This document shows positions 1-17,938 of a DNA stretch of 64,000 nucleotides, piece after piece. This stretch comes from a virus (taxonomy: Duplodnaviria > Caudoviricetes). A program made the position numbers and the translations under genes. The stretch is taken from the IMG/VR virus record IMGVR_UViG_3300037067_013379, positions 1-64,000 of that record. One strand, 5' to 3'. Every line of letters starts with the position of its first letter. The stretch's first letter is position 1. The notes under the pieces are model-generated. The model had not been told where the DNA came from, searched no databases, and saw nothing but the letters and a program-made list of their open reading frames with translations.

Positions 1-207
1 CGGTTCGCGAGTCGACAAGGATCTGACACCCTGCCCTTCCCCGTACGGCCCCCGGTTCGCCCCCGGGGGCCGTCGTCGTATTGGGGCCACGGGCGGCCCC
101 AGCGTCCCGCCACGGCCCGAACGGGGTGGTCCGCGTATGTCCGGACCCCCCGGTATTTCGTGACGCCAGGGGCCGTCTGGGGCGGTTGTGGAGGACAGAC
201 CGAAGGG

Positions 208-252
208 ATGAGCGTTAGGACTCGACAACCCCTAACGCCACGGGTAGCGTAT
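208..252 (+). promoter_or_regulatory. Promoter with overlapping operator (CGTTA-N15-TAACG)
   Basis: TCGACA (222-227), 17 bp, TAGCGT (245-250); near-identical 45-bp copy on the minus strand at 59488-59532. Confidence 0.7.
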
Positions 253-255
253 CCC

Positions 256-843
256 ATGTCAACACAAACCGGCACCAACCAGACGCAGGAGACGGCAATG
301 GCGATCAACGACAACGGCACCATCACCCACACCGGCCTCGTCCTCGGCACCTACGAGCACAACGGCTACGACGACAGCGACTTCATCGCGGCCGTCTGGA
401 ACCCCGACACCCGCACCATCGACCACATCGAGTACGACTCGACCCGCTACGGCGGACACGGCAGCGCCACCCGCGACGCGAGCCCCGAAACCATCGCCCA
501 GGCCGAGGCCGTACTCGCCGCACGCCTCGCCGAGATCGACCTCACCCAGGCCCGCAAGGACGCGACCACCCCGGTCAAGGGCCGCCGTGTCCGGTCCACC
601 ACCAAGCGCGGCAAGAACGTCGGGGTCGAGGGCATCGTGATGTGGAGGGGCGAGAAGCGCTCCCAGTACGGCACCTGGTCATACGGCTACCGCGTCGGCA
701 TCAAGGTCGATGGGGAAACCCGCCTCCGCTACCTCGACGAGACCGCCGTCGAGGTCCTCGACCCCCCCACCGTCGACGAGGCCACGATCACCCGCCACGC
801 GGCCGAGGACGCCCGACGTCACCAGTGGTGGCTGTCGAAGTAG
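256..843 (+). CDS. Hypothetical phage protein (start at 256, possibly leaderless, or at 298)
   Basis: ORF directly downstream of the promoter; GGAG precedes ATG 298; followed by a hairpin. Confidence 0.7.
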   Translation: MSTQTGTNQTQETAMAINDNGTITHTGLVLGTYEHNGYDDSDFIAAVWNPDTRTIDHIEYDSTRYGGHGSATRDASPETIAQAEAVLAARLAEIDLTQARKDATTPVKGRRVRSTTKRGKNVGVEGIVMWRGEKRSQYGTWSYGYRVGIKVDGETRLRYLDETAVEVLDPPTVDEATITRHAAEDARRHQWWLSK

Positions 844-856
844 CCCAACCCCCCCC

Positions 857-891
857 GAACGCCCGGCCGCGACCCGCAGGCCGGGCGTTTC
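857..891 (+). terminator. Intrinsic terminator-like hairpin
   Basis: GAACGCCCGGCC...GGCCGGGCGTTT just after the stop at 843. Confidence 0.6.
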
Positions 892-913
892 GGCATCCAC
901 ACAAAAAACCATG

Positions 914-952
914 CGTTAGAGTCTCGCTACATGTAGCGCACGTGGGTACCAT
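914..952 (+). promoter_or_regulatory. Promoter with degenerate CGTTA-N15-TAACG operator
   Basis: TCGCTA, 17 bp, TACCAT; CGTTA-N15-TAGCG spans the -35. Confidence 0.5.
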
Positions 953-990
953 AGTGGTACGTCAATCGCACCGCGAACGGAGCGCCCACC

Positions 991-1348
991 ATGAAGGACA
1001 TCACCACGATCGCGAAGGAAATCCACGCGGACGTCAAAACCGCCCTCGAACATGGCACCATCGCCGTACCCCCCCTGCGTCCGCGTCACCGTCCGCGTCG
1101 ACCGACGCGGCCTCGCACCCAGCGTCAACGTCTACTTCAGCCCCACCGACGACACCGCTACCGACGACGTCAACGCCTGGAAATTCACCACCAACCCCGA
1201 CAACACCCACGTCCTGTCAGACGCGGTCAAGACCGCCGGAACCCGAATCCTCGCGATGATCAGAACCCGCAGCGACGGAACGTCCTACGGCGAGATCAAC
1301 TGCCACGGAACCATCATCGCGATCATGACCCCCGACCGAAACAGGTAG
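991..1348 (+). pseudogene. Hypothetical protein interrupted by a +1 frameshift in a C7 run (or sequencing error)
   Basis: MKDITT...AVPP (991 frame) joins CVRVTVRVDRR...DRNR (1052-1348 frame) if one C of 1069-1075 is removed. Confidence 0.55.
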
Positions 1349-1427
1349 ATCACCACCAACCGTCCACACACACCGTCACCCAACCGGACGACACCAACCA
1401 GGCACCACCAGCCGGTACCGTCCGAAC

Positions 1428-1931
1428 ATGGAGAACACCCCAGTCACGCAACGTGTCCTCGACGCAGCGGCCCTGATCCTGACAACGGCCGCGACCCGCA
1501 CCGAGCAAACCGGGTGCAACACAACAACCGCGTTCGCCTACGCGGAAGACCGGGCCTCCGAGACCTACCAACTCACCCGACCGGAACTAGCCCACGCGGC
1601 ACGGCTCGCCACATTCGCCGCGTTCGCCACGGGCGCCTACTCGATCAACGCCATGACCGACCCGGCCGTCAGGGAAACAGCCCTCCGAACCGCGATACCC
1701 CACATCACAACGGACCAGCCAAGGGACCAGCCATGCTCGACAAGATCCGAACCGTGTTCAACCGCACCCCGGACCCCGCCAAGACCTACACACCCGAAGA
1801 CCTCCGCCGTATCGGCCAGACACTCAGCGAGGAACAGTTCCGCCTGGAGGAGATTCGTCGCCTCCCTATCGAGGAGGCGGCCCGTCTCTACCCCGGCGAC
1901 CAGTGAACCGACCATGACGACCCCCGCGTAA
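1428..1931 (+). CDS. Hypothetical protein (3' part overlaps next gene)
   Basis: Protein-like N-terminal ~100 aa; tail reads like an off-frame extension. Confidence 0.5.
   Translation: MENTPVTQRVLDAAALILTTAATRTEQTGCNTTTAFAYAEDRASETYQLTRPELAHAARLATFAAFATGAYSINAMTDPAVRETALRTAIPHITTDQPRDQPCSTRSEPCSTAPRTPPRPTHPKTSAVSARHSARNSSAWRRFVASLSRRRPVSTPATSEPTMTTPA
1733..1906 (+). CDS. Small hypothetical protein MLDKIRTVFN...
   Basis: AAGGGA RBS before ATG 1733; helical, protein-like composition. Confidence 0.55.
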   Translation: MLDKIRTVFNRTPDPAKTYTPEDLRRIGQTLSEEQFRLEEIRRLPIEEAARLYPGDQ

Positions 1932-1984
1932 CCTCCCAACGGCACCCGGCGAACCCGGGGGGAAACACCGGGTGCCACACAAAC

Positions 1985-2026
1985 GAAGGCCCCGACCACA
2001 CACCAGGGGTTGTGATCGGGGCCTTC
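1985..2026. terminator. Bidirectional terminator-like hairpin between convergent genes
   Basis: GAAGGCCCCGA...TCGGGGCCTTC. Confidence 0.6.
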
Positions 2027-2037
2027 ACCACGTCCGG

Positions 2038-3150
2038 CTACCCGGCGAGCCGGGCCGCCTCCTCGTCCGCTACCGCGTCCGCGACCTCCGCCGCGCTCGG
2101 CACCACCGGAACCGGCAACATCGGGGCCAGAGCAGCGGCCAGCGCCGCGACGTCGACATTCCCCAGCGCCAGGGCCGACACCCGGTCGAGTGTCTGCTGG
2201 GCGAGATCCCGGGCCGCCGTAGCCGCGACCTTCGCCTCCTCCGCCGCGACACGGGCCGCCTCCGCGATGTTCCGGGCGTCCCCGGCCGTGTTCGCCGCAC
2301 CAACCGCCGTTGAGTGGATCTCCGACAACTTCCCGGGAACCGCCCCGTACCAGTCGCCCATACGCATCGCGTTCCGTGGTCCGCCCATCCAGTCCGGGGG
2401 CGTGGCACCAACCGTGCCGTTCTTGAACTCGTCGAAGGACATGCCCAGATTCCAATCTCCGTCGGTACTACCCGAACCCTCGGACGGTGGCGTGACGACC
2501 ACGCCCCCGGAACCACCACCACGGGCCAGTGCCCGCAACTCGTCCACCGACCCCATGAACGCGTTCACGTCGATCGGGGACCTACCGGCGACCGTCGCGG
2601 ACGACGCGAACTGCAACACCGTCACTGAACCCCAACCGCCATACCGGGACGACCACCACGAGTCAGGGACCTTCTCGTACAACGTCGACCCGTATCCGCC
2701 ACCGGACACGTACCGGGAATCCCACAGGTACGGGGTCAGCGACGCGCCGTTCCACCCGCGCTCAGACCACCACCAGTTACCCGAGTACATGAACAACGGA
2801 TGATCTCCGGCGAGTTCACGCCACCGGGCGAAGAAGTCCACCGTCGTCTGCCACCCGGCGTCCGCCTCGTTGTCACACGCCACGAGCCACCCGTCCGGGC
2901 CGCCGTGGTCGCGCACCCGGTTGTAGAACGCGTCGCACTGCGCCCGACCGGACCCCGACCGTAGGTAGTGGTACGCCCCCGGCACGGCCCCGGACGCGAG
3001 GACCTGCCCCGCGAACGTGTCGAACATGCCATCGCGGAACGTCGTTCCCTCCGTGGCCTTCATCCACACCCCGGAGTAGCCCTCGGACACGGCCCGACCG
3101 ACGTCGAACGCGCCCTGGTGATTCGAGATGTCGATCAACCAAGTAACCAC
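2038..3150 (-). CDS. Endolysin, GH25 muramidase with helical C-terminal tail
   Basis: IDISNHQG, KATEG, GAYHY, CDNE, LQF and IDVNAF motifs of GH25; VDVAALAAALAP tail typical of actinophage lysins. Confidence 0.88.
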   Translation of the reverse strand: MVTWLIDISNHQGAFDVGRAVSEGYSGVWMKATEGTTFRDGMFDTFAGQVLASGAVPGAYHYLRSGSGRAQCDAFYNRVRDHGGPDGWLVACDNEADAGWQTTVDFFARWRELAGDHPLFMYSGNWWWSERGWNGASLTPYLWDSRYVSGGGYGSTLYEKVPDSWWSSRYGGWGSVTVLQFASSATVAGRSPIDVNAFMGSVDELRALARGGGSGGVVVTPPSEGSGSTDGDWNLGMSFDEFKNGTVGATPPDWMGGPRNAMRMGDWYGAVPGKLSEIHSTAVGAANTAGDARNIAEAARVAAEEAKVAATAARDLAQQTLDRVSALALGNVDVAALAAALAPMLPVPVVPSAAEVADAVADEEAARLAG

Positions 3151-3493
3151 GTCACCTCCTCCTCAGCCTTGATCTCCACCATAGACACCCAAACGGCCAG
3201 CGGAGATCAACCTCACGCACAGCCACGAGAAACCGGAAAGAGGAAGACCCCGACCTCCACCCGGCCGGGGCCTTCCATCCACCGGCACCACAGGGGTTTA
3301 GGGAACCGGTGAAACCGGGTGCCACCTGCCCTCCCCAGAGCGTGACACCCACGTACCCATCATGCACCGGACCAATGATCACCGTCGACCCCCGTGACAC
3401 AACCCGAATCATGACGTGATCATTAGGGTGGAACGACGGCACAGGGCCGCGACCCACTACCGGGGACGGCCTACCGAACGTAGCGAGGCGACC

Positions 3494-4093
3494 ATGGCGA
3501 AACGTAGTCCCATCGACCTCGACCCGGGCCGCGAACCGTGGGACCAGCAGCCCCGGGAGTCATCCCGTCAGTACGAGCGGTTCCTCCGGTTCCGGGACCT
3601 CGGCCGTATGCGCTCCCTAACAACCACTAACAAGGTGCTAACGGGAATAGGGGATGAACTCACCTATGGGACCTTAAGGGGACAATCGCACCTATACCGA
3701 TGGGCGGAACGAGCGCAAGCCTGGGACCGACACCAAGACGAAGCCGACCGCGAGCGCGTCAACCAGGCACGACGCGACATGATCGACCGTCACCAAAAGA
3801 TCGCCGGAGCACTCGCCAAAAAGGCCCTCGGCGCACTACGCGTCCTCCAAGACGCGGACCTCGACCCGGCCGACGTCGTCCGATTCCTCAAACTCGCCAC
3901 CGACCTTGAGATACGGGCGATCGGAGACCCAAACCAGACAATCGCCGTAACCGGCCCGGCCGGGGGACCAATCGTCACCGAGGACATCACGCACCTCACC
4001 GACGAGGAACGACGCGTACGCCTCAAGGAGGTGGCAACCGAGTTGGCTCGCCGTGCCGGCCTTCAAACCACCGAAACCGACAACGAGGAATAA
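3494..4093 (+). CDS. Putative terminase small subunit
   Basis: PWDQQPRES..YERF..FRDLG..RSL and RWAERAQAWD motifs resemble actinophage small terminases (recalled family similarity). Confidence 0.6.
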   Translation: MAKRSPIDLDPGREPWDQQPRESSRQYERFLRFRDLGRMRSLTTTNKVLTGIGDELTYGTLRGQSHLYRWAERAQAWDRHQDEADRERVNQARRDMIDRHQKIAGALAKKALGALRVLQDADLDPADVVRFLKLATDLEIRAIGDPNQTIAVTGPAGGPIVTEDITHLTDEERRVRLKEVATELARRAGLQTTETDNEE

Positions 4094-4095
4094 CC

Positions 4096-4488
4096 ATGCC
4101 AAGAACACCGAAAGGTGACACCACCGACAACGACATGCAGGCGATAGGCCACCAAATCGGCTCCCTCGCCAGCGTCGCCGTAGTCGCGGCCGTCCAGTTC
4201 GGCATACCCCTCACCCCAGGCCAGCAATCATCCATCCTGTCCGTCATCGCCGTTGCCTGGGCTCTTTTCGCCACCATCTACGGCATCAGACACCGAATCC
4301 CCCGACGCGCCCGGAACGACCCGAACAACCGGACGCAACCCACGACGACCACGCGAACGACCCCGAACCGCGTCCCACGTAGCCCCAACACCCCTACCGG
4401 GACGACCGGAACCACCGGCCCCCGGCGACGTCCCACCGGTGTCAACGACGGAAGCGCTGACCAACCCGAACCGGGAAAGATGCCGTAG
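4096..4488 (+). CDS. Holin-like membrane protein
   Basis: Two hydrophobic segments joined by FGIPLTPGQQSS; basic Pro/Thr-rich tail. Confidence 0.55.
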   Translation: MPRTPKGDTTDNDMQAIGHQIGSLASVAVVAAVQFGIPLTPGQQSSILSVIAVAWALFATIYGIRHRIPRRARNDPNNRTQPTTTTRTTPNRVPRSPNTPTGTTGTTGPRRRPTGVNDGSADQPEPGKMP

Positions 4489-4644
4489 CACACCATCAAC
4501 CCGCCCCGGGGCCGCCCCGATCCGCTTCGCGACCGTTGCCGCGTCACCAGCGCCACCCTCCCGCAACGCCGACACGACCCGATCCGCGATACCACCAGCG
4601 ACCATGAACGGATAGGTACCCCTACGACCACGCATACCCCCATC

Positions 4645-6978
4645 ATGACCACCAACAAGGCACCACGGGAAGGGACCATGGAACGCCGGCTGGACTACCA
4701 GGACCTCGACAGCATCGAACCGGCCCCCAACAACCCCAAGGAACACCAGATCGACAACGTCCGGGCCAGCATCGACCGATTCGGCTACGTCGCACCAATG
4801 ATCATCGACGACCGAACCGGCCGACTCGTCGTAGGCCACGGACGCCTCGAATCACTCAAGGCCCGACGCGACGCGGGCGAGACCCCACCAGAGGGAATCC
4901 AAACCGACGACACCGGCCGCTGGCTCGCCCCCGTCATCCACGGCTGGGCCTCCCGCTCCGACGCGGACGCAGCCGCCTACCTCGTCCTCGACAACCGCCA
5001 AACCGAACTCGGAGGCTGGGACCACCAGGCCCTATCCGACCTGTTGGAAGAGATCGGAGACCCCGACCTCATCGAACTCACCGGCTGGGACCCGGCCGAC
5101 CTTGAGGAACTCCTCGCCAACATCGACAACGACGACGACGGCCTCGGGCTGGGGGACGGCACCGGCAACCCCTCCCTCGCCGACCGGTTCGGCGTACCCC
5201 CGTTCGATGTCCTCGACGCACGGCAGGGCTACTGGCGCGACCGGAAGCGCTCCTGGCTCCGCCTCGGCATCAAGTCCGAGATCGGCCGGGGAGACCGGTT
5301 GGCGTTCAAGGGCATCGAACGGGCCGACCCGCAGTACTACCAGAAGAAGACCGCCGTGGAGGCCCGCATCGGCCACGCGTTGACCAGCAAGGAATTCTTC
5401 GACCACCACTACGAGGCCCCCACCGAGGGACCCGGCACCGGAACCAGCATCTTCGACCCAGTCCTCTGCGAACTCGTCTACCGCTGGTTCACCCCACCGG
5501 GCGGAAACGTCCTCGACCCGTTCTCCGGGGGATCCGTCCGGGGAATCGTCGCAGCCGCGACCGGACGCCGGTACCACGGCGTTGACCTCCGCGCCGAACA
5601 GTTGGACGCGAACCGCGCCCAGGCCCAACAGATCCTCGCCCCCGGCATGTCCACCACCCCGGAGGTCGGAACCGTCGACGACCCGGCCGCGTTGACCCCG
5701 ATCGAGTCCCACGGCGGATACCTCGTCAAACGTGACGACCTGTTCCAAGTCGGTGGATCCCGGGGCGGGAAGGTCCGCACGTGCCTCGCCCTCATGACAC
5801 AACCCGACGTCGCCGGAGTCGTCACGGCCGGATCCCGACACTCACCCCAGGTCAACATCGTCGCGACGATCGCCGAGCGCCTCGGCCTCCCCTGCCGCGT
5901 TCACGTCCCGTCCGGCGACACGACCCCGGAACTCGCCGCAGCAGCGGCAGCCGGAGCCGAGGTGATCCAGCACAATCCCGGATACAACAACGTGATCATC
6001 AAACGGGCCAGGGACGACGCGGACGCGCTCGGCTGGTTGAACGTCCCGTTCGGCATGGAGTGCGAGGAGGCCGTCAAACAGACCGCCCGACAGACCCGGA
6101 ACCTCGACACCGTCACCCCGACCCGCATCGTCGTACCCGTCGGGTCCGGCATGTCCCTCGCCGGGATCCTCACCGGCCTGGCAGCCACCGGCAACACCAC
6201 CCCGGTACTCGGGGTGATCGTCGGAGCCGACCCCACTGAGCGCCTCGGCACCTACGCCCCCCCTGGTTGGCGAACCATGGTCGAACTCGTCGAGTCGAAC
6301 TACGACTACGCCGACCACCACCCGGCACCGTTCCTCGGGGACCTCGACCTCGACCCGGTGTACGAGGCGAAATGCCTGCCCCACCTCCTACCCGGCGATC
6401 TCCTGTGGGTGGTCGGACGGAGGGAGACCGCCGGTGGTCCGGCCGCTGCGATCGTCGACCACCCGCACATGCCCGAGTGGACGTGTGGGGACAGTTCGGT
6501 TGTGGTCCCCCGGCTCCCGGCCGAATCGGTCGACCTGATCTTCACCTGCCCCCCGTACTACGACCTGGAAACCTACGGGGACGACCCGGCCGACCTGTCG
6601 ACCATGGGCTATGACGAGTTCGACCAGGTGTACGAACAGATCATCGGGGCGGCAGTCGCCGTGCTCCGCCCCAACCGGTTCGCCGTGATCGTCACCGGGG
6701 ACGCGCGGGACAAACACGGCACCCTCCACGACCTACGGGGTGAGACAATCCGGGCCGCGACCAGGGCCGGACTCCGCTACGTCAACGGCGCTGTCCTCGT
6801 CACCCCAGTCGGTTCAGCGGCCGTCACAGCGGCCCGGGGGTTCGTTGGTACCCGCACCCTCGGCCGGGTCCACCAAGACGTGTTGGTGTTCGTCAAGGGC
6901 GACCGGAAGGCAGCGGCCGTGAACTGTGGGGACGTCGAACTCGAACTCGAAGCCATCGAACCGGAATCCGGCGACTGA
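4645..6978 (+). CDS. ParB-like domain + amino-DNA methyltransferase split by a fold-type-II PLP-dependent domain
   Basis: ParB: NNPKEH, IDRFGYVAP, GHGR, DNR. MTase motif I VLDPFSGGS (5509-5535) and motif IV TCPPY (6544-6558). Between them LTP..LVKRDD..GGK, GSGMS and LDPVYEAK of the ACC deaminase/D-cysteine desulfhydrase-like family. Confidence 0.85.
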   Translation: MTTNKAPREGTMERRLDYQDLDSIEPAPNNPKEHQIDNVRASIDRFGYVAPMIIDDRTGRLVVGHGRLESLKARRDAGETPPEGIQTDDTGRWLAPVIHGWASRSDADAAAYLVLDNRQTELGGWDHQALSDLLEEIGDPDLIELTGWDPADLEELLANIDNDDDGLGLGDGTGNPSLADRFGVPPFDVLDARQGYWRDRKRSWLRLGIKSEIGRGDRLAFKGIERADPQYYQKKTAVEARIGHALTSKEFFDHHYEAPTEGPGTGTSIFDPVLCELVYRWFTPPGGNVLDPFSGGSVRGIVAAATGRRYHGVDLRAEQLDANRAQAQQILAPGMSTTPEVGTVDDPAALTPIESHGGYLVKRDDLFQVGGSRGGKVRTCLALMTQPDVAGVVTAGSRHSPQVNIVATIAERLGLPCRVHVPSGDTTPELAAAAAAGAEVIQHNPGYNNVIIKRARDDADALGWLNVPFGMECEEAVKQTARQTRNLDTVTPTRIVVPVGSGMSLAGILTGLAATGNTTPVLGVIVGADPTERLGTYAPPGWRTMVELVESNYDYADHHPAPFLGDLDLDPVYEAKCLPHLLPGDLLWVVGRRETAGGPAAAIVDHPHMPEWTCGDSSVVVPRLPAESVDLIFTCPPYYDLETYGDDPADLSTMGYDEFDQVYEQIIGAAVAVLRPNRFAVIVTGDARDKHGTLHDLRGETIRAATRAGLRYVNGAVLVTPVGSAAVTAARGFVGTRTLGRVHQDVLVFVKGDRKAAAVNCGDVELELEAIEPESGD

Positions 6979-6983
6979 CACCA

Positions 6984-7021
6984 CAACGGCCCGGGGCGAA
7001 ACGATCCACCCCGGGCCGTTG
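6984..7021. terminator. Bidirectional terminator-like hairpin
   Basis: CAACGGCCCGGGG...CCCCGGGCCGTTG between convergent genes. Confidence 0.7.
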
Positions 7022-7034
7022 GGAGCGCTACCGG

Positions 7035-7943
7035 TCACCCACCGGACTGCGCGGCCGTGAACGCGGCCTGGTGCAACACCTCGTCCCCCCCGATGTCCGT
7101 GAACAACGCGGCCTCCGCCGTGTCCCCGGCCGTGGTCGCCTGCGCCGCGAACGCCGTGTACGACGCGATCGCCCCATTCTCCGCCGCGATCGCACCAGCG
7201 AGGTTCACCGCGTCCGTACCGACCAGCCCGAACTGGTTCGCGAGGACGGCGAAGTGATCGAACAGTTCGTAGTCGGCGAGCGCGAAGAACAGGTTCGCCA
7301 GCCACTGCTTGCCGTTCGCGTCCGCAGTCTGCCCGAACAACCTGTACCGGGCCGACGCGTACGCCTCACCCCGCAACGCCGTTTCGATGTTCGCCAGCGT
7401 CGCCCCGGACGACAACGCCGGACCCTCGACGATCGTCACCGGTGTGACCGTCGGTGGTGTCGGGTGCCGGCCCCCAACGGTCAACGCCCGGTACGCCTGG
7501 GCGAGCAGCGTCTTGTGCGTCCCCTCGTCCCCGGAGAGTTCGGTGAATATCGCGGCAGCCGCGCTGTCCCCGTCAGTGGTCGCCTGCGTCGCGAAACCGG
7601 GGTACAGGGTGGTTGCCTCCGCGTACTCGTCGAGCATCGCCGTACGGGTGTTCGTGGCGTTTCCCGCGATGATGTCGAACATGTCGGCGAGTTCGTAGAA
7701 GTGCTCGCCCCGTTCCTGTGACGCGGTTGCCATCAGCAACCCGGCGAGCGCCGCGTCCCCGGTACCAACCGCGTGGTCCGACCACGCCATGTACGACGCG
7801 AACGCGTACGCCTCATCGTGCATCGCGGTGAGGGCGTTCGTGACAGTCCCGGCCGTTGCCGCGTACGCCGGGGTCGGCCCGATCACCCCGATGGTGACGA
7901 GCACGGCTATCCCAACGGCCGCGATCCTTGATCGTTTCCTCAT
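7035..7943 (-). CDS. Secreted tandem rubrerythrin/ferritin-like di-iron protein
   Basis: Basic-hydrophobic signal peptide ending AYA; four E-x6-Y...E-x2/3-H helix pairs (DEAYAFASY..QERGEH, DEYAEATTLY..DEGTH, GEAYASARY..YELFDH, AENGAIASY..DEVLH). Confidence 0.75.
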   Translation of the reverse strand: MRKRSRIAAVGIAVLVTIGVIGPTPAYAATAGTVTNALTAMHDEAYAFASYMAWSDHAVGTGDAALAGLLMATASQERGEHFYELADMFDIIAGNATNTRTAMLDEYAEATTLYPGFATQATTDGDSAAAAIFTELSGDEGTHKTLLAQAYRALTVGGRHPTPPTVTPVTIVEGPALSSGATLANIETALRGEAYASARYRLFGQTADANGKQWLANLFFALADYELFDHFAVLANQFGLVGTDAVNLAGAIAAENGAIASYTAFAAQATTAGDTAEAALFTDIGGDEVLHQAAFTAAQSGG

Positions 7944-8028
7944 GGTGTCCCCCTTAGTGGGCGTTGTGCACCATGATGCGACCCCCGGTGGAGCCCACGT
8001 AAGGCTTCGCCGGGGTCGGGGGAAAGAA

Positions 8029-8229
8029 CTACCTGGATTCCTTGCCGTTCGTCCGGACGGACAGGGCCTTGACACCGCACGTGTCTGCCGGACCAACCAT
8101 CGCGTTCAATGCCGTGGTGACGTACTGGACGACGTCGGAACGAATCTCGTCGCGGCTGGTACCGCTGTGGTATTCGGTGTCCCAGTCCTCGGGGTCGACG
8201 TCGACCGTGACGACCATGGAGATCTTCAT
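8029..8229 (-). CDS. Small hypothetical protein
   Basis: MKISMVVTVDVDPEDW...; GAAGGTG upstream; ATGA overlap with the preceding gene. Confidence 0.55.
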   Translation of the reverse strand: MKISMVVTVDVDPEDWDTEYHSGTSRDEIRSDVVQYVTTALNAMVGPADTCGVKALSVRTNGKESR

Positions 8230-8417
8230 CGGAACACCTTCCAGGTCAGGGCGAGAAGGGTGATCAACGAGATGGTCATGATCGTGACGACGGTCGCGAG
8301 GTGACCGGTCACCAACAGGATCATGGTGATGATGGTCGAGGCGACCAGGACCACCAGGACGAGCGCGGCAGCGCTGGCGGACGACAAGCCACCGAGCCAG
8401 CGGAGGAATCGGTTCAC
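8226..8417 (-). CDS. Small membrane protein
   Basis: Two hydrophobic segments; translationally coupled to neighbours. Confidence 0.6.
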   Translation of the reverse strand: MNRFLRWLGGLSSASAAALVLVVLVASTIITMILLVTGHLATVVTIMTISLITLLALTWKVFR

Positions 8418-8770
8418 CGGACGCCCCCGATCGTGTCGAGCATAGTGGCGTGAACCGCGTGGATCGCGCAGTACACCGAGCCGTGCTCACGCTCGGTGTC
8501 GCAGCCGACGATCCCGTGTTCCGGGTGCGTGTCGATCCAGGCGCAGGGCCGCATCTCCTCGTCAGCGGCGCGGAGGGCCTCGCCGCAGGTGTGGACGTGG
8601 TCGGAGACGACGGTTCCCTCGCCGTCAACGGCGCACCATGTCCGGTCGTTTCCCTGGTAGACGTGCGCGACCATGAATCCCTCGGGGTTGACGAGGGTCC
8701 ACGCTCCCACGTTCGACGTCATCCCTCGTCTCCAGACGAATCCGTCCTTCGCGAGTGTGGCGGTTGTCAT
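8414..8770 (-). CDS. Hypothetical protein with C-terminal Cys/His cluster
   Basis: AAGGGAG RBS; C..C..C..H residues near the C-terminus. Confidence 0.6.
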   Translation of the reverse strand: MTTATLAKDGFVWRRGMTSNVGAWTLVNPEGFMVAHVYQGNDRTWCAVDGEGTVVSDHVHTCGEALRAADEEMRPCAWIDTHPEHGIVGCDTEREHGSVYCAIHAVHATMLDTIGGVR

Positions 8771-8805
8771 GGCGCTCCCTTCTTGGCTGGTCAGTGCGTG
8801 GTCCC

Positions 8806-8842
8806 AGTATGAACCACGCACGTAATGGCGTCAACTATTACG
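8806..8842 (-). promoter_or_regulatory. Promoter TTGACG-17-CATACT with CGTA-N14-TACG operator
   Basis: CGTAATGGCGTCAACTATTACG at 8821-8842; a near-identical copy is at 9791. Confidence 0.7.
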
Positions 8843-9356
8843 ACGTAGATTCGTGGTTATGTACGATCGGGGTGTTGATGTCGTACCCGTAGTCGGTCGG
8901 CCTGTCCCTCCCGTCGACGAACGTGACCAACCGACCCCGGCCCTCCACCGGCCACGCACACGGCACGAAGTGACCCGGCTGGTAGTACCCGGCCCTCGCC
9001 CCCACCGGTCGCTCCTTGACCGGCGCCAGCGACCCCAGCACCTTCCCCGCGAACGCGATCGCCCTCACGTCGTGCCACCCGTGGCATGTGGTACGGGAAT
9101 GGACGAGCCACGCGTCAACCGACCGCGACCCCTGACCGTCGCAGCGGCACGGGGCGATGGTCCCGTCGAGGCACCGGTCGGCGTAGCAGGCCCGGAACTC
9201 GGCCCGGTACCCGGTGTTGGTGGTGACCCGGTACCGATCCGCGATCGGTTCGGGGTGCCAGTCGACGTGGATCATGTCGCGGACGACGACGACCACGAGG
9301 CCGCCCTTCTTCCGTTCGAGCACGGTGACCGTTCCGGCCGGCTGCGCCTTCGCCAT
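8838..9356 (-). CDS. Hypothetical protein
   Basis: GGGGAG RBS before MAKAQPAG. Confidence 0.6.
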   Translation of the reverse strand: MAKAQPAGTVTVLERKKGGLVVVVVRDMIHVDWHPEPIADRYRVTTNTGYRAEFRACYADRCLDGTIAPCRCDGQGSRSVDAWLVHSRTTCHGWHDVRAIAFAGKVLGSLAPVKERPVGARAGYYQPGHFVPCAWPVEGRGRLVTFVDGRDRPTDYGYDINTPIVHNHESTS

Positions 9357-9441
9357 GGTTGATCTCCCCGGTGGTTCGCGGTAGGGGTGTGTGGGGGGGG
9401 CCGGGCGGGTGTGCCGGGCTGGCCGGCACACCCCAGGCACG

Positions 9442-9723
9442 TCAGATGACGTGCGCGTAGACCTTGTGCCAGCGGTACCAGCCCTCCTTGACGAGCACGT
9501 AGCCCACACCATCGACGATCCGAACCGCCTGGACCTTCCGGCGTCCGCCGGACCGGAAGCCGAGGGCGCACAGGGTGTCCCCGACCACGATCTGGTTGAA
9601 CGTGCAGCACTCGACGTCGCGGCTACCGACGAGCGCCTCGTTCACGCGGAGGTCTCCGATCGCCTTGTCGGTGGCGAAGTCGGCAGCGGCGTGGATCGCG
9701 TAGGTGTGGGTGTAGGTGCTCAT
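9442..9723 (-). CDS. Hypothetical protein
   Basis: AGGAGG RBS before MSTYTHT; downstream of a promoter. Confidence 0.65.
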   Translation of the reverse strand: MSTYTHTYAIHAAADFATDKAIGDLRVNEALVGSRDVECCTFNQIVVGDTLCALGFRSGGRRKVQAVRIVDGVGYVLVKEGWYRWHKVYAHVI

Positions 9724-9774
9724 TGGGTACCTCCTGGTGAGTGGTGGTTTGTCGTCGTTCCCGGCGACATGTTC

Positions 9775-9880
9775 AGTATGGAGGAGAGGGCGTAATGGCG
9801 TCAACTTTTACGCCGAAATTTCTGAGACAATCACGACGTACCTACGCCTTGACCTACGGGCGTGTACGCGGGATGATAAC
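9775..9880. promoter_or_regulatory. Divergent promoter pair, each -35 bracketed by CGTA-N14-TACG
   Basis: Leftward TTGACG-18-CATACT; rightward TTGACC at 9849; operators at 9791-9812 and 9837-9858. Confidence 0.65.
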
Positions 9881-9884
9881 CACC

Positions 9885-10130
9885 ATGAACGAACTCCACC
9901 CGACCGCCATAGAACTCGCCAAAATCGAGGCAGACTACGCCAAAACCCTCGCCAAACTGGCAACCCTCAAAGCCGCACGGCGGGACAAGAAACGCGAACA
10001 CAAGGCCGCGATCGTCGACGCGATCAACGAGACCCCAGACGCGACACACGTCGACCTCGCGGCACGGTTCGCCGTGACCGAGGGAACCATCCGACACATC
10101 CGACGCGAACTCGCCCCCACCGAGTCATGA
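9885..10130 (+). CDS. Small coiled-coil + HTH DNA-binding protein
   Basis: C-terminal ATHVDLAARFAVTEGTIRHIRREL HTH pattern. Confidence 0.65.
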   Translation: MNELHPTAIELAKIEADYAKTLAKLATLKAARRDKKREHKAAIVDAINETPDATHVDLAARFAVTEGTIRHIRRELAPTES

Positions 10131-10615
10131 CCACCACCCGAGCGCGACCGGCCGTCCGCACACCACGACGAACCGAGGAACTCGACACCCAGGCAGCGAT
10201 CATCGAATTCTGCCTGCTCCTCGGGTACCTCGTCTTCCACGACAACGACCCCCGACGCAACCGCGCCGGGTTCCCCGACCTCGTCATAGCCGGATACGGG
10301 GTTGTGATCATCATCGAACTCAAGACCGACCGGAACGAGCCCACACCCGAACAACGCGCCTGGCTCACCGCGTTCACGGACGCCGGCCTCGACGCGCGGG
10401 TGTACCGCACCTCCGCATGGAAGACCGGCGACCTCGTCAACGAACTCAAAACGATCAAACGGAACTGGACCCGCACACACCCGAGGACGACGACATGCCC
10501 TACGACCCCAACCTCCCAATCCCTGCCGCGACCGACATCGACGAGCGGAGGCCGAAAGACGCCCTCGCGTACTGGACGTGCCGGTACTGCGGCTTCCACG
10601 AAGCGGGTCGGCTGA
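10127..10615 (+). CDS. VRR-NUC domain nuclease (possible junction resolvase)
   Basis: GFPDLVI, IIELKT and PTPEQRAWL motifs. Confidence 0.85.
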   Translation: MTTTRARPAVRTPRRTEELDTQAAIIEFCLLLGYLVFHDNDPRRNRAGFPDLVIAGYGVVIIIELKTDRNEPTPEQRAWLTAFTDAGLDARVYRTSAWKTGDLVNELKTIKRNWTRTHPRTTTCPTTPTSQSLPRPTSTSGGRKTPSRTGRAGTAASTKRVG

Positions 10616-10950
10616 CCACCGACGCGGAGGCCCGACGCTGCGCGGCACACGAGTACCGGTGCCCGAAACGGCCGAATGACGACACCACACTCGACTACGA
10701 ACGGGCCGCGTACCAGGCCGTTCACGCGGCCGGTCTCCGCCGTGACGTCCTCGGCCTGTCACTCCTCCTCGACGACAAGCGGACCCTGCTCCGCCGGACG
10801 TGGTTCTTCGAGTTCCGGACCCGCCGAGCGCTCCGAGACGACATCGCGGCCCTCCACGGCCGGATTGCCGGTGTCCACGCACACGCCCTCACCCTCGACC
10901 TGGACGCCGGGTGGTACGAGCCACACTTCCACCCAACGGCGCTGCGGTAG
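10495..10950 (+). CDS. Hypothetical protein with CxxC/C-H motif
   Basis: GAGGA RBS before MPYDP; CRYC...C..H..C. Confidence 0.6.
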   Translation: MPYDPNLPIPAATDIDERRPKDALAYWTCRYCGFHEAGRLTTDAEARRCAAHEYRCPKRPNDDTTLDYERAAYQAVHAAGLRRDVLGLSLLLDDKRTLLRRTWFFEFRTRRALRDDIAALHGRIAGVHAHALTLDLDAGWYEPHFHPTALR

Positions 10951-10992
10951 CGCGCACGGCACGCACGACCACATGGGCGACCCCCGGCTAGG

Positions 10993-11214
10993 GTGTCGCC
11001 CATGACCATTGATGGGACACCCGAACCGACCCCGGAACGCCCGGTGTACACCATGGTGTTAGAAGACACCGGGGACGCGACCGACCGCTACATGATCCGA
11101 TGCGACGAGGGTTGGCGCGAGATGATCGTCTGTGAGGGCATGTACCGGTGGGCTGCCGAGTGGCTGCTGCGAGTCCTCGGGAACCGCCCGTACGCCGACG
11201 GAAACGCCCCCTGA
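10993..11214 (+). CDS. Small hypothetical protein
   Basis: Protein-like ORF ending before a hairpin. Confidence 0.55.
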   Translation: MSPMTIDGTPEPTPERPVYTMVLEDTGDATDRYMIRCDEGWREMIVCEGMYRWAAEWLLRVLGNRPYADGNAP

Positions 11215-11234
11215 CCACAACCAGACCAGGGACA

Positions 11235-11274
11235 CGAAAAGGCCCGCCAGGATCATCACTTGCGGGCCTTTTCG
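11235..11274. terminator. Bidirectional terminator
   Basis: CGAAAAGGCCCGC...GCGGGCCTTTTCG. Confidence 0.75.
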
Positions 11275-11281
11275 TCGTCAG

Positions 11282-11887
11282 CTACGCGGCCGGAGCGTCC
11301 GAGGCCATCTCCCAGAACGGAGCCGCCAGCACGAACCGACCGACGGTGCCCGTGTCCTCCAACTTGATCGTGCAGATCAGGCCGATCTCGTCGACCTTCG
11401 TGATCGTGGCGTACCGGTCGTTGGTGACGCAGTGCCAGCGCTGGCCGACCGCGTACGCCGGCTGGTCCACGTACCGCATGCTCTCCGGGCCGGCGTATCC
11501 GGTGCTGGTCGCGGATCGGATCTCGTACGCCCGGTCGGTCGGGTCGAGGGGGTTCTCATCGAACGCGATCACGACCCCGAACTGGTTGTCACGCTGCCCG
11601 AACCGGTAGTACACCCGGTCCCCGATCTCGTACGTGCGGGTGAACGGGCCGAACCCGGGCCGGTCGAGGAGGGTCGCCTTCCGCTCGTCGGACGCGTGGT
11701 AGGTGTAGATGTCGTCTCGGCCGTTGACGCCCTCCTCGACCTGGATCGCCCAGTCACGGGTCTTCATTACGAACCAGGTGCGGACGACGAGGCGGGGGAT
11801 CGGGTCGCCGGGCAGGATCACGGTGTCCCCAGCGTCGATGCTGCTGAGGTAGATGTCGATCTGGCCGGGCTTGGTCGTGGTGTCCAC
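11282..11887 (-). CDS. Hypothetical protein (repeated small beta/SH3-like modules)
   Basis: GAAAGGA RBS before GTG; IGDRV and VGQRW repeats. Confidence 0.6.
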   Translation of the reverse strand: MDTTTKPGQIDIYLSSIDAGDTVILPGDPIPRLVVRTWFVMKTRDWAIQVEEGVNGRDDIYTYHASDERKATLLDRPGFGPFTRTYEIGDRVYYRFGQRDNQFGVVIAFDENPLDPTDRAYEIRSATSTGYAGPESMRYVDQPAYAVGQRWHCVTNDRYATITKVDEIGLICTIKLEDTGTVGRFVLAAPFWEMASDAPAA

Positions 11888-11921
11888 GGTTGTTCCTTTC
11901 GGTGGTGTTCGCGACGGATTC

Positions 11922-11950: not shown

Positions 11951-11991
11951 GCCATGGCGGGGGGAGTGGCGCTCCCCCCGCTGGTGGTGTG

Positions 11992-16258: not shown

Positions 16259-17938
16259 GTGGCAAGACTACGAGCGCTCCGCGACCCCTCCAGCATGAGC
16301 GACGCGGAACTGATGGCGGAGGCCGAGGCCCTCGAAGCGGCCGAGGACCACGCGTCGATGTCGGACCCGGCCGCGTTGCTCCGTCGGATCGTCCCGCGCT
16401 ACCGGCTACGCCCCCACCTCGACGTGATCACCACCCAAATGAAACGGATCATGTCGGGGGAAATCGACCGACTATTGATCACCCTCCCCCCGCAGACCGG
16501 GAAGACGTTGACCGCCGTGGTCGGGGGAGCCGTGTGGTGGTTGGCGAACCGCCCGGACGCGAAGGTCATCATCGGGTCGTACGGTGATTCGCTGGCCGTG
16601 GACCGGGGCCGCGATTCGAAGCGCCTCATCGAGGAACACGGGCACCGGTTCGGATTGTCCCTCGCCCGTGGCTCCGAAGCCGTCCAGGACTGGCACCTCA
16701 CCACCGGGGGCGGGGTCCTGTCAGTCGGGATCGGGGCCGGCGTGACCGGGAAGCCAGGCGACATCGCGTTCATCGACGACCCGCACAAGAGCCGGGCCGA
16801 GGCGGACTCGTTGCGGTTCCGCGACCGGGCGTACCGGTGGTTGAGCGCGGACATCATCAGCCGGTTGTCTCCCGGTGCCCCGATGGTCATGGTCATGACC
16901 ATGTGGCACCCGGACGACCTGGCGGCCCGGGTCATAGCCGACGAGGGGACCACGGCGGAGGGGGGCCGGTGGGAGGTCGTGCGGATGCCGGCGTTCTGCG
17001 ACGATCCCGCGCACGACCCGTTGGGTCGGAACCTCGGCGATCCGTTGCCGCACCCGAAGATTCGGGAGGGTGATGTCGCGCGGGCAACAGCCCATTGGCA
17101 GGACAAGCGCCGGGCGTCGACGGTGCAGGACTGGCACGCGTTGTACATGTGCGACCCGAAACCGGCCGAGGGTGCGCTGCTCACCCGTGACCTGTTGCGT
17201 GAGCGCCGGTGCTACACGAAGGGGTCGGCGTGTCATCCGTGCGACGCCGCGCCGGTCCGTGCCGCCGTGGCGGTTGACCCGTCCGGGGGCGGCCGGGACA
17301 CGGCTGGGGTCGTCGGCGGATATCTCGGGTCGGACAAGCGCCTGTACCTGGTGCGCGACGCGTCCGGGGCGATGTCGTCGGATGCGTGGGCGCGGGCAGC
17401 GTGTGAAACGGCCGTGGACATCGACGCCGATCTGATCATCTTCGAGAAGAACTTCGGGGGTGACATGGCGGGTCGGATGATCCGAACCGCGTGGTCGACG
17501 TTGCAGACGGAGGAGCGGGAGGCGGCCCGGAACCGGGTGATGGACACGCAGGCGCACCTGACCGCGCGGGAGGTCGAACGGGCCGTCGACCGGACGACGC
17601 TGCGGTACGGCCGGATGTGCCCCCGGATCAAGGCCGTGACGGCGCGGAAGAACAAGCGGCTGCGGGCAGACCCGATCGCGCAACAGTGGGTCGAGGACCG
17701 TATCCGCACGGCCGCGTATCTGCCGGAGGTCGAGGAGGAGTGGGCGACGTGGCAGGAGGGATCGTCGGATTCGCCCGGCCGGATCGACGCGTCTACCTAC
17801 CTGGCGTATGCGTTGCTGCCGATCCCGAAGAGCGGGTCGGGGGGTGCCGCCGCGCCCGGTGGTTCGCTGCCAACGACGGGTTCCTCGCCGCTGGACCGGG
17901 GATCGGGCGGCAGTGGTTTCGGGCCGCTGGCGCGGTAG
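16259..17938 (+). CDS. terL: Terminase large subunit
   Basis: Walker A PPQTGKT; Walker B FIDDP; nuclease AVAVDPS and DRIDA-like GRIDA motifs. Confidence 0.93.
   Translation: MARLRALRDPSSMSDAELMAEAEALEAAEDHASMSDPAALLRRIVPRYRLRPHLDVITTQMKRIMSGEIDRLLITLPPQTGKTLTAVVGGAVWWLANRPDAKVIIGSYGDSLAVDRGRDSKRLIEEHGHRFGLSLARGSEAVQDWHLTTGGGVLSVGIGAGVTGKPGDIAFIDDPHKSRAEADSLRFRDRAYRWLSADIISRLSPGAPMVMVMTMWHPDDLAARVIADEGTTAEGGRWEVVRMPAFCDDPAHDPLGRNLGDPLPHPKIREGDVARATAHWQDKRRASTVQDWHALYMCDPKPAEGALLTRDLLRERRCYTKGSACHPCDAAPVRAAVAVDPSGGGRDTAGVVGGYLGSDKRLYLVRDASGAMSSDAWARAACETAVDIDADLIIFEKNFGGDMAGRMIRTAWSTLQTEEREAARNRVMDTQAHLTAREVERAVDRTTLRYGRMCPRIKAVTARKNKRLRADPIAQQWVEDRIRTAAYLPEVEEEWATWQEGSSDSPGRIDASTYLAYALLPIPKSGSGGAAAPGGSLPTTGSSPLDRGSGGSGFGPLAR

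What the first reader, a model, noticed from the sequence alone, without database searches (positions are those of the whole stretch)
4645..6978. DNA methyltransferase split by an inserted PLP-dependent enzyme and fused to ParB: candidate new DNA hypermodification enzyme
Seen: the domain order is ParB, MTase motif I (DPFSGGS), a ~250-aa fold-type-II PLP domain (about 5680-6430, with putative Schiff-base Lys in GGK at 5770, GSGMS and LDPVYEAK), then MTase motif IV (TCPPY). The C-terminal insert junction is marked by a short flexible linker. Established: phage ParB-MTase fusions occur, and PLP enzymes act on amino-acid-DNA adducts in phage thymidine hypermodification. Inference: the fusion may couple a SAM-dependent transfer (methyl or aminocarboxypropyl) to PLP-dependent elimination, deamination or decarboxylation on DNA.
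Basis: partly seen in the sequence, partly recalled or inferred. Interest (0 to 1): 0.78.

Follow-up and report, generated by a model that had tools for sequence, protein, structure and literature searches.

The report
Phage DNA methylase carrying PLP enzyme
A phage gene joins a DNA-binding ParB domain to a DNA-methylase-type enzyme that has a complete vitamin-B6 (PLP) enzyme nested inside it; the module is widespread and unstudied, and comparison with relatives suggests it puts an aminopropyl-type group on DNA, not a methyl group, which no known system does.

Summary
ORF 4645-6978 (777 aa) reads ParB-like domain, SAM-binding half of a permuted amino-methyltransferase (DPFSGGSVRG), a 250-aa fold-type-II PLP domain (Lys376), then the catalytic half (TCPPY).

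It is not a one-off. More than 120 full-length homologues share the architecture. The PLP domain family has 390 clusters at E<=1e-30. This scan has met the module before in other genomes.

New here:
- The insert belongs to the phage PLP family of ViI gp226 and M6 gp52. These are the only enzymes shown to decarboxylate amino acids attached to DNA bases.
- Relatives occur in three forms: PLP inserted, PLP as a separate gene nearby, or no PLP.
- A sister clade is instead locked to a SAM decarboxylase gene (68 of 80 loci). Only that clade has a remodelled SAM pocket (Gly to Asp, Arg to Phe).
- PLP-linked and partnerless enzymes have indistinguishable cores.

Best reading (about 45%): the methylase-like half transfers the 3-amino-3-carboxypropyl arm of SAM to a DNA base, and the PLP domain decarboxylates it to aminopropyl.

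Nothing is shown biochemically, and the target base is unknown. A plain methylase with an accessory PLP domain remains possible.

The parts
4645..6978 (+). Whole gene, 777 aa: ParB-like domain, methylase-like N-half, PLP insert, methylase-like C-half
4678..5142 (+). ParB-like N-terminal domain (aa 12-166; VGHGR at aa 63-67)
   Evidence: phrog_620 E 3.5e-30, phrog_723, phrog_15396. Gly64 is invariant, but the Arg of GHGR is not conserved in homologues such as Pam4 gp70 (AGNHT).
5167..5649 (+). Methylase-like N-half (aa 175-335): conserved PPFxVLDARQGYW block, SIFDPVLCE, motif I DPFSGGSVRG (nt 5515-5544), Tyr310
   Evidence: PF01555 aa 280-321 matches profile positions 176-217 of 221. Invariant D291, G295, G296, R299, Y310. 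Aligns to 2zie and CcrM.
5680..6435 (+). Inserted fold-type-II PLP domain (aa 346-597): KRDD 362-365, Lys376 (nt 5770-5772), GSRHSPQ 396-402, GSGMS 500-504, YEAK 573-576
   Evidence: PF00291 E 4.9e-15. phrog_3650 E 1e-33 and phrog_7093 E 7e-14. Foldseek top hits are D-cysteine desulfhydrase 4d8t and ACC deaminase homologue 1j0a. K376, S400, G500, S501, Y573, E574, K576 are invariant in 46 homologues.
6463..6939 (+). Methylase-like C-half (aa 607-765) with catalytic loop TCPPY (nt 6544-6558)
   Evidence: NCBIfam PRK11524 aa 614-646 matches model positions 19-51. 2zie aligns TSPPY to TCPPY. C635, P636, P637, Y638 are invariant.
3416..4093 (+). Small-terminase-like gene, upstream neighbour
   Evidence: phrog_6299 E 2.5e-22. 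The same PHROG lies next to homologous methylase genes in other contigs.
16259..17938 (+). Large terminase; portal follows at 18588-20750. This is the packaging module that homologues of this gene normally precede.
   Evidence: phrog_38 E 3.6e-77 and phrog_776 E 5.9e-149

Best explanation
The protein is a self-contained, two-step DNA-modifying enzyme of a siphovirus. The ParB-like domain holds it on DNA. The methylase-like module is a circularly permuted relative of N4/N6 amino-methyltransferases, with a Cys in place of Asp/Asn/Ser in the catalytic (D/N/S)PPY loop. It binds intact SAM and transfers the 3-amino-3-carboxypropyl (acp) arm of SAM, not the methyl group, to a DNA base, releasing methylthioadenosine. 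The nested PLP domain forms a Schiff base through Lys376 with the free alpha-amino group of the tethered acp and removes its carboxyl group. This leaves a cationic 3-aminopropyl base. The sister clade reaches the same product in one step from decarboxylated SAM made by a neighbouring SAM decarboxylase. Shown here: the architecture, the conservation of both active sites, homology of the insert to DNA-acting PLP decarboxylases, and the gene linkages and pocket covariation. Inferred: the group transferred, the order of steps, DNA as substrate, and the product. Unknown: the target base and sequence specificity.
For: (1) Both catalytic centres are under selection. K376, S400, G500-S501, Y573-E574-K576, D291/G295/G296/R299 and C635-P-P-Y638 are invariant in 46 homologues of 46-86% identity.
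(2) The insert belongs to the phage mini-PLP family whose two characterised members decarboxylate amino acids attached to bases in DNA (PMC8989533). M6 gp52 hits phrog_7093 at E 2e-159 and the insert at 7e-14. ViI gp226 (Vi01_182, orf00226) hits phrog_3650 at E 5e-243 and the insert at 1e-33. K376 aligns with M6 K36 and ViI K92. KR[DE]D, GS and Y[ED]xK are shared.
(3) The only amino-acid moiety a SAM-binding fold can supply is acp.
(4) Fusion and neighbourhood pattern. Of 80 viral loci related to this gene, 29 have the PLP domain inserted. Fourteen have a separate PLP ORF, mostly starting at or overlapping the methylase stop; a few of these calls may be frameshift-split inserted forms. Thirty-two have none. 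Two different PLP subfamilies have been recruited: phrog_7093-like in L079 and L085, and insert-like P0160 and P0237.
(5) Sister clade. In 68 of 80 loci found with the Croceibacter phage P2559S AdoMetDC (73 of 80 within 1 kb), a CPPY-family gene ends at the decarboxylase start. That decarboxylase is experimentally a true SAM decarboxylase (PMC9992855). The clade is monophyletic (support 0.998). It alone has fixed pocket changes: Gly to Asp and Arg to Phe in motif I, Tyr310 to Phe, and others. This fits loss of carboxylate recognition.
(6) PLP-linked and partnerless enzymes show no discriminating column in the methylase core. The maximum Jensen-Shannon divergence (JS) is 0.49, in linker regions, against 0.74-0.85 for the AdoMetDC clade. 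So the PLP step does not change the donor and is an add-on after transfer.
(7) AdoMetDC and PLP never co-occur in the about 165 loci examined.
Against: No experiment on any member was found. No natural acp- or aminopropyl-modified DNA base is known to me. The methylase-like halves match ordinary DNA N4/N6 methylases in sequence (2zie, CcrM), and nothing in sequence alone distinguishes methyl from acp transfer. If the reading is right, the many partnerless members in cultured phages (phiFL3A gp36, Listeria B054 gp77) would make acp-DNA, which has never been reported. That Arg299 and Tyr310 contact the SAM carboxylate is inferred from the motif position, not from a structure with ligand. The AdoMetDC linkage is a single evolutionary event, though long maintained. 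The domain arrangement in the model is uncertain (pTM 0.56), so it is not known whether the PLP site faces the methylase pocket.
Confidence: 0.45

Rival explanations
1. Ordinary orphan m6A or m4C DNA methyltransferase of the phage ParB-terminase locus. The PLP domain would be an accessory module (regulatory, oligomerisation, or an unrelated metabolic activity) that does not act on the DNA product.
For: The methylase halves hit PF01555 above the gathering score, and they hit solved DNA methylases. Close relatives function without any PLP domain (32 of 80 loci), with identical cores. Published views treat ParB-N6N4 methylase fusions as methylases (PMC4738411; bioRxiv 10.1101/2025.10.10.680097).
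Against: A methyl group offers the PLP domain no substrate. Yet PLP active-site residues are invariant. The domain comes from a family specialised for DNA-tethered amino acids. It has been joined to this methylase family in three arrangements and from two PLP subfamilies. The invariant Cys in place of D/N/S is unexplained. The sister clade's obligate link to a SAM decarboxylase is hard to reconcile with methyl transfer.
Confidence: 0.2
2. The PLP domain is a PLP-dependent SAM decarboxylase that makes decarboxylated SAM in situ. The methylase-like half then transfers the aminopropyl group directly, as in spermidine synthase. The product is the same as in the best explanation, but the order of steps is reversed.
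For: The PLP gene or domain sits in the same position relative to the methylase as AdoMetDC does in the sister clade, and the two are mutually exclusive. This fits non-orthologous replacement.
Against: PLP-linked enzymes keep the Arg/Gly/Tyr pocket of partnerless relatives and lack the Asp/Phe/Phe pocket fixed in the dcSAM-linked clade. The characterised relatives of the PLP domain act on DNA-bound amino acids, not on free SAM. PLP presence is patchy among close relatives.
Confidence: 0.15
3. A SAM- or SAH-consuming enzyme. The PLP domain would destroy the amino-acid end of SAM (ACC-deaminase-like or lyase chemistry) or of the product SAH, to starve host restriction or BREX systems of SAM, or to relieve product inhibition of the methylase.
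For: The fold and the Tyr-Glu signature resemble ACC deaminase and D-cysteine desulfhydrase. Phage SAM-degrading anti-restriction enzymes exist (established knowledge: T3 SAM lyase).
Against: NCBIfam scores for ACC deaminase and D-Cys desulfhydrase models are 15-26 bits against cut-offs of 289-469, so it is not a member of those enzymes. A SAM destroyer needs neither a ParB domain nor an invariant catalytic CPPY loop. The nearest characterised relatives are decarboxylases acting on DNA.
Confidence: 0.08
4. The substrate is a small molecule, not DNA. The module would be a phage polyamine synthase that adds acp to a diamine and decarboxylates it (a SAM-based analogue of the carboxyspermidine route). 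The sister clade would be an aminopropyltransferase using dcSAM. The polyamines would supply counter-ions for DNA packaging.
For: AdoMetDC in phages is published as a polyamine gene (PMC9992855). The genes lie at the packaging module. Spermidine synthase has a methylase fold (established knowledge).
Against: Sequence kinship is to DNA N4/N6 methylases with their (x)PPY base-binding loop. Most members carry a ParB DNA-binding domain. The PLP relatives act on DNA.
Confidence: 0.07

Closest known systems
Salmonella phage ViI gp226 and Pseudomonas phage M6 gp52: PLP-dependent decarboxylases of amino-acid:thymine conjugates in DNA (Lee et al. 2021, PMC8989533)
   Same: Same small fold-type-II PLP family (phrog_3650 and phrog_7093). 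The PLP lysine aligns (K376 with K92 and K36). KR[DE]D, GS and Y[ED]xK motifs are shared. Both are phage-encoded.
   Different: They are free-standing proteins working with a 5-hmdU kinase and an aGPT-Pplase that attach free glycine or serine to thymidine. Here the domain is nested in a SAM-dependent transferase. None of those partner genes was seen in the ORFs I scanned, though I did not search for them specifically. Pairwise identity is only 21-23%.
Insert-less ParB / CPPY methylase-like proteins of phage ParB-terminase loci (Enterococcus phage phiFL3A gp36, Listeria phage B054 gp77, Mycobacterium phage prophiT37-1 gp72)
   Same: 40-43% identical over ParB and both methylase halves. Same permuted order, same DPFAGGSVRG and [ST]CPPY motifs, same position before the terminase genes.
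   Different: They lack the 250-aa PLP domain. Their genomes contain no homologue of it. None is characterised.
AdoMetDC-linked CPPY clade (Croceibacter phage P2559S gp66 plus gp67)
   Same: Same methylase-like family and CPPY loop. A decarboxylating partner is encoded at the 3' end of the gene.
   Different: The partner is a pyruvoyl SAM decarboxylase acting on free SAM (PMC9992855). The donor pocket is remodelled (Asp and Phe in motif I). It forms a separate clade.
acp and aminopropyl transferases with SAM-binding folds: TYW2, Tsr3, spermidine synthase (from established knowledge, not tested here)
   Same: They use the aminocarboxypropyl or aminopropyl arm of SAM or dcSAM instead of the methyl group. 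TYW2 and spermidine synthase have the class I methylase fold.
   Different: No detectable sequence relationship was seen here. Their substrates are tRNA, rRNA or polyamines, not DNA. None carries a PLP domain.
CmoA-CmoX carboxy-SAM system of Synechococcus phage S-B43 (PMC12783734)
   Same: A phage DNA methylase-fold enzyme transfers a non-methyl group from a modified SAM, often with a ParB-domain gene nearby.
   Different: C5-cytosine chemistry, a different methylase class, the donor is made by CmoA, and there is no PLP enzyme.

Membership tests
Fold-type-II PLP enzymes (Pfam PALP, PF00291) | Profile match above the gathering score | tested here: met
   56.1 bits against a cut-off of 35, aa 359-531. 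Foldseek probability 1.00 to D-Cys desulfhydrase and ACC deaminase structures.
Fold-type-II PLP enzymes (Pfam PALP, PF00291) | Schiff-base lysine and glycine-rich phosphate loop conserved | tested here: met
   K376 and G500-S501 (GSGMS) are invariant in 46 homologues. Cofactor binding itself is not testable here.
Phage DNA-amino-acid PLP decarboxylases (ViI gp226 / M6 gp52; phrog_3650 / phrog_7093) | Significant match to the family profiles, with the catalytic Lys aligned | tested here: met
   phrog_3650 E 1e-33 and phrog_7093 E 7e-14. K376 aligns with K92 and K36.
Phage DNA-amino-acid PLP decarboxylases (ViI gp226 / M6 gp52; phrog_3650 / phrog_7093) | Decarboxylates an amino acid tethered to a DNA base | not testable with these tools
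   Needs LC-MS of nucleosides or a CO2 release assay.
Phage DNA-amino-acid PLP decarboxylases (ViI gp226 / M6 gp52; phrog_3650 / phrog_7093) | Works with a 5-hmdU kinase and an aGPT-Pplase | not tested
   None of these genes appeared among the neighbours and larger ORFs scanned with PHROGs or Pfam. No targeted profile search for a 5-hmdU kinase, an aGPT-Pplase or a dUMP hydroxymethylase was run, and the last 13.5 kb of the genome was not scanned.
ACC deaminase / D-cysteine desulfhydrase (TIGR01274, TIGR01275, PRK03910) | Score above the curated NCBIfam cut-off | tested here: not met
   15-26 bits against cut-offs of 289-469. The domain is about 90 residues shorter. The Lys, Ser and Tyr-Glu signature residues are present, which is a resemblance only.
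N4/N6 DNA amino-methyltransferases (PF01555, beta class) | Profile match above the gathering score and SAM motif I (DPFxGxG) | tested here: met
   40.1 bits against a cut-off of 26.7. DPFSGGS at aa 291-297, with D291, G295 and G296 invariant.
N4/N6 DNA amino-methyltransferases (PF01555, beta class) | Catalytic motif IV (D/N/S)PP(Y/F/W) | tested here: not met
   The first residue is Cys (TCPPY). It is invariant across inserted, adjacent, partnerless and AdoMetDC-linked members.
N4/N6 DNA amino-methyltransferases (PF01555, beta class) | Beta-class order: motif IV before motif I | tested here: not met
   The order here is motif I then motif IV. The two pieces match the end and the start of the profiles.
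N4/N6 DNA amino-methyltransferases (PF01555, beta class) | Transfers a methyl group to DNA | not testable with these tools
   Needs biochemistry: SAH versus MTA as by-product, and nucleoside mass.
ParB N-terminal (CTPase / nuclease-like) domain | Profile match | tested here: inconclusive
   PHROG ParB families E 1e-22 to 1e-30. Pfam PF02195 is not reported for this protein, but it is precomputed for many homologues.
ParB N-terminal (CTPase / nuclease-like) domain | Conserved Box II arginine for NTP binding | tested here: inconclusive
   GHGR is present here (aa 64-67), but only Gly64 is invariant. Pam4 gp70 and prophiT37-1 gp72 read AGNHT.

The most novel reading that the evidence does not exclude
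The whole CPPY family (this PLP-nested form, the forms with a separate PLP gene, the partnerless forms in cultured Listeria, Enterococcus and Mycobacterium phages, and the AdoMetDC-linked clade) would be a widespread class of DNA aminocarboxypropyl and aminopropyl transferases. Natural phage DNA would then carry acp- or 3-aminopropyl-modified bases, made from the non-methyl arm of SAM. This would be a DNA modification chemistry not yet described, reached by two convergent routes.
Probability: 0.4. Interest if true: 0.9.

Novelty: new variant of a known kind. Interest (0 to 1): 0.72.

Why it matters
If the reading holds, SAM would serve in DNA as it does in tRNA, rRNA and polyamine synthesis: as a donor of its amino-acid arm. 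Phage DNA would carry a positively charged aminopropyl base.

That would add a new entry to the short list of natural DNA hypermodifications. It would give a one-gene tool for installing a primary amine handle on DNA. It would also bear on evasion of restriction and on charge neutralisation during packaging, since the gene family sits beside terminase genes.

The family is large (390 clusters at 50% identity for the PLP domain alone). It includes cultured phages: Pseudanabaena phage Pam4, Erythrobacter phages R6L and ZS04, and Mycobacterium phages AlanGrant and Vincenzo in split form. The hypothesis is therefore directly testable.

If it is instead a plain methylase, the conserved nested PLP enzyme still needs an explanation.

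Tried and rejected
- Megablast of window 1-20000 against 50,697 phage records gave no match, so no close cultured relative exists.
- Literature searches on ParB, methyltransferase, pyridoxal, hypermodification, aminocarboxypropyl, aminopropyl, SAM decarboxylase and CPPY found no description or experiment on this architecture.
- The 2013 Iyer/Aravind survey of phage DNA-modification systems (NAR 41:7635) is not held. I could not check whether it mentions the PLP fusion.
- The Erythrobacter phage R6L paper only annotates its homologue as a 'DNA modification methylase'.
- AdoMet_dc (PF02675) is absent from this phage's 77.5-kb genome, so it does not use the sister clade's route.
- I considered that the insert is a degenerate target-recognition domain. 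I rejected this because all PLP active-site residues are invariant.
- I considered true ACC deaminase or D-Cys desulfhydrase function. I rejected this on NCBIfam scores far below the cut-offs.
- P0014 is a 79-83% identical relative that lacks exactly the PLP domain. It also lacks aa 218-256 and the Tyr of CPPY, so it looks like a decayed copy and not a natural 'minus-insert' control.
The distance between Lys376 and the methylase pocket could not be measured.
Full report
**What is in the window.**
The genome is a single 77,496-bp virus record, and the window is its first 64 kb. It is a siphovirus-type genome:
- GH25 endolysin at 2038-3150 (-)
- small-terminase-like gene at 3416-4093
- large terminase at 16259-17938
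- portal at 18588-20750
- major head protein at 32567-34387
- tape measure at 42214-45795

Pfam finds PALP (aa 359-531) and N6_N4_Mtase in two pieces. The motif I piece matches the end of the profile and the motif IV piece matches the start of a methylase model, so the methylase is circularly permuted relative to beta-class enzymes. PHROGs add a ParB-like domain at aa 12-166. The AlphaFold2 model built on 46 homologues has mean pLDDT 84.9 but pTM 0.56. The only disordered stretches inside the enzyme are at the two insert junctions, at the ParB linker and at 261-267. Foldseek places the insert nearest D-cysteine desulfhydrase and the ACC deaminase homologue 1j0a.

**It is a family, not an accident.**
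A search of 5.8 billion proteins gave more than 1400 hits. The best 120 (E<1e-186, 45-89% identity) nearly all carry PF00291, and most also carry PF01555. They include Streptomyces prophage copies annotated only as 'pyridoxal-phosphate dependent enzyme'. The S. mobaraensis copy lies just upstream of portal and capsid genes. Cultured phages with the full architecture are Pseudanabaena phage Pam4 (gp70, 44%) and Erythrobacter phages ZS04 and R6L (34%).

The PLP domain alone finds 390 clusters (50% identity) at E<=1e-30 in 1.84 billion representatives. Most are fused, and some are free-standing at 260-285 aa. In 46 homologues both active sites are invariant:
- PLP side: K376, S400, G500-S501, Y573-E574-K576
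- methylase side: D291, G295, G296, R299, Y310, C635-P-P-Y638

**The insert is a clean insertion into a known kind of phage gene.**
Insert-less homologues share ParB, DPFAGGSVRG and [ST]CPPY, and differ by the absence of aa 340-606. Examples are phiFL3A gp36, Listeria B054 gp77 and prophiT37-1 gp72. The Cys in the catalytic loop is therefore a trait of the whole family, and it departs from the (D/N/S)PPY rule.

Across 80 related viral contigs the gene typically precedes small terminase, large terminase and portal genes of several unrelated PHROG types. This is the 'ParB-terminase locus' that Iyer and Aravind proposed modifies DNA around packaging (PMC4738411). ParB-N6N4 methylase fusions in phages are also noted in a 2025 preprint. 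Neither source mentions a PLP domain.

**What the PLP domain is related to.**
M6 gp52 is the archetype of phrog_7093 (E 2e-159). ViI gp226 (Vi01_182, note orf00226) is the archetype of phrog_3650 (E 5e-243). The insert matches phrog_3650 at 1e-33 and phrog_7093 at 7e-14. Lys376 aligns with the proposed PLP lysines K36 and K92, and the KR[DE]D, GS and Y[ED]xK motifs are shared.

Lee et al. showed that these two proteins bind PLP and decarboxylate C-alpha-glycyl-thymine and O-seryl-thymine within DNA. ViI gp226 was modelled on 1j0a (PMC8989533). The insert is not an ACC deaminase or a D-Cys desulfhydrase by NCBIfam criteria: 15-26 bits against cut-offs of 289-469.

**Three arrangements of the same pair.**
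Among the 80 loci related to this gene:
- 29 have the PLP domain inserted.
- 14 have an insert-less methylase plus a separate PLP ORF of 233-267 aa. It mostly starts at or overlaps the methylase stop (L051, L077, L079, L085, L065, L070). A few calls (L042, L048, L063) may be inserted forms split by frameshifts.
- 32 have no PLP gene although at least 1.5 kb downstream is visible.

Mycobacterium phages AlanGrant and Vincenzo are cultured examples of the split form, with gene 1 the ParB-methylase and gene 2 the PLP protein.

Free-standing PLP proteins 50-55% identical to the insert (P0160, P0237) lie 1-1.5 kb from ParB-less CPPY methylases. The adjacent PLP genes of L079 and L085 are instead M6-gp52-like (phrog_7093, E 1e-36) and only 21% identical to the insert. 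Two PLP subfamilies were therefore recruited. On a tree of the methylase core, the inserted, adjacent and partnerless forms are intermixed.

**The sister clade gives the clue to chemistry.**
In Croceibacter phage P2559S an insert-less CPPY gene (gp66) overlaps by 38 nt a downstream AdoMet_dc gene (gp67, PF02675, E 2e-19). Li et al. showed that gp67 is a genuine SAM decarboxylase (PMC9992855). I used gp67 to fetch 80 viral loci (49-100% identity). In 68 of them a CPPY-family ORF ends at the decarboxylase start, and in 73 one lies within 1 kb.

These methylases form one clade (support 0.998). A dozen or so positions differ sharply between this clade and the rest of the family. They include:
- motif I: A-G-G-S-V-R-G becomes A-G-D-[TS]-V-F-G (Asp 100%, Phe 98%)
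- Tyr310 to Phe
- SIFDP to SILDP
- Trp612 to Tyr

Loss of Arg and of a Tyr hydroxyl, with gain of Asp in the loop that lines the methionine end of SAM, is what one would expect if the donor no longer has a carboxylate. This is an inference. The analogy is the acidic residue in the GGGDGG loop of spermidine synthase, which I recall from the literature. All known uses of decarboxylated SAM transfer its aminopropyl group.

**Putting the two together.**
PLP-linked and partnerless methylases keep the Arg/Gly/Tyr pocket. They show no discriminating column in the core: the maximum Jensen-Shannon divergence is 0.49, confined to linker regions, against 0.74-0.85 for the AdoMetDC clade. AdoMetDC and PLP never co-occur in the loci examined, and this phage has no AdoMetDC.

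The simplest account runs as follows. The Arg-type enzymes bind intact SAM and transfer its 3-amino-3-carboxypropyl arm. The PLP module, where present, then decarboxylates the tethered amino acid, as its characterised relatives do. The Asp-type enzymes get the same aminopropyl product directly from decarboxylated SAM.

I give this about 45%. The weaker statement, that the module makes a non-methyl, SAM-derived mark, gets about 60%.

**Limits.**
No member has been studied. Sequence cannot tell methyl transfer from acp transfer. The target base is unknown, and the role of the Cys is unexplained. The reading implies acp-DNA in partnerless cultured phages, which nobody has reported. The AdoMetDC link arose once. 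Rival readings are scored separately: a plain methylase with an accessory PLP domain, in-situ SAM decarboxylation, SAM or SAH catabolism, and a polyamine-type small-molecule substrate.

**Relation to earlier scan notes.**
The scan had already reported the PLP-nested methylase on other genomes, and separately the AdoMetDC-methylase pair with the pocket change. I reached both independently here and re-tested them.

Noticed in passing
window 7035-8096 (-): Directly downstream on the opposite strand lies a 353-aa protein with rubrerythrin- and ferritin-like matches (PF02915, E 9.5e-14). The region 7-12.4 kb is a block of reverse-strand genes between the methylase gene and the large terminase.
   Followed up: no
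P0014 (467 aa, 2.3-kb metagenome contig): A 79-83% identical relative lacks exactly the PLP domain (aa 346-601). It also lacks aa 218-256 and 11 residues including the Tyr of CPPY. It looks like a decaying copy.
   Followed up: partly
L179:3414-7126 and L174:3388-6657: Free-standing PLP genes sit in clusters with a ParB-less CPPY methylase plus extra genes. These are an Asp/Arg-hydroxylase-like dioxygenase (L179, 387 aa), a small second methylase-like protein with SPPD (L179, 208 aa), and a Cys-rich 191-aa protein (L174). They may be further tailoring steps.
   Followed up: partly
KR080200.1 / NC_028934.1 (Mycobacterium phages AlanGrant, Vincenzo), genes 1 and 2: These cultured subcluster B4 mycobacteriophages carry the split form. 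Gene 1 is the ParB-CPPY methylase. Gene 2 is the PLP protein, annotated 'nucleoside deaminase' or 'carboxylate deaminase'. They are convenient for experiments.
   Followed up: partly
OV696619.1 (Glutamicibacter phage Montesquieu) 29223-30062: A PLP-domain homologue annotated ACC deaminase lies next to an aGPT-Pplase clade 2 gene, which is a thymidine-hypermodification context.
   Followed up: no
window 53732-55981 (-): A 749-aa FtsK/SpoIIIE-like protein (phrog_31069, E 5e-46) is encoded in the phage.
   Followed up: no
window 1-6000: Strong compositional skew (GC skew about -0.19, AT skew +0.23 to +0.34), unlike the middle of the genome.
   Followed up: no
PDB 9jqf (Campylobacter jejuni CJ0600, 281 aa): A small solved PLP-fold protein of unknown function is among the better structural matches to the insert (TM 0.66 on the target). 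It may be a cellular relative of the mini-PLP family.
   Followed up: no
window 4096-4488 (+): A 130-aa ORF with no family match lies between the small-terminase-like gene and the ParB-methylase gene.
   Followed up: no
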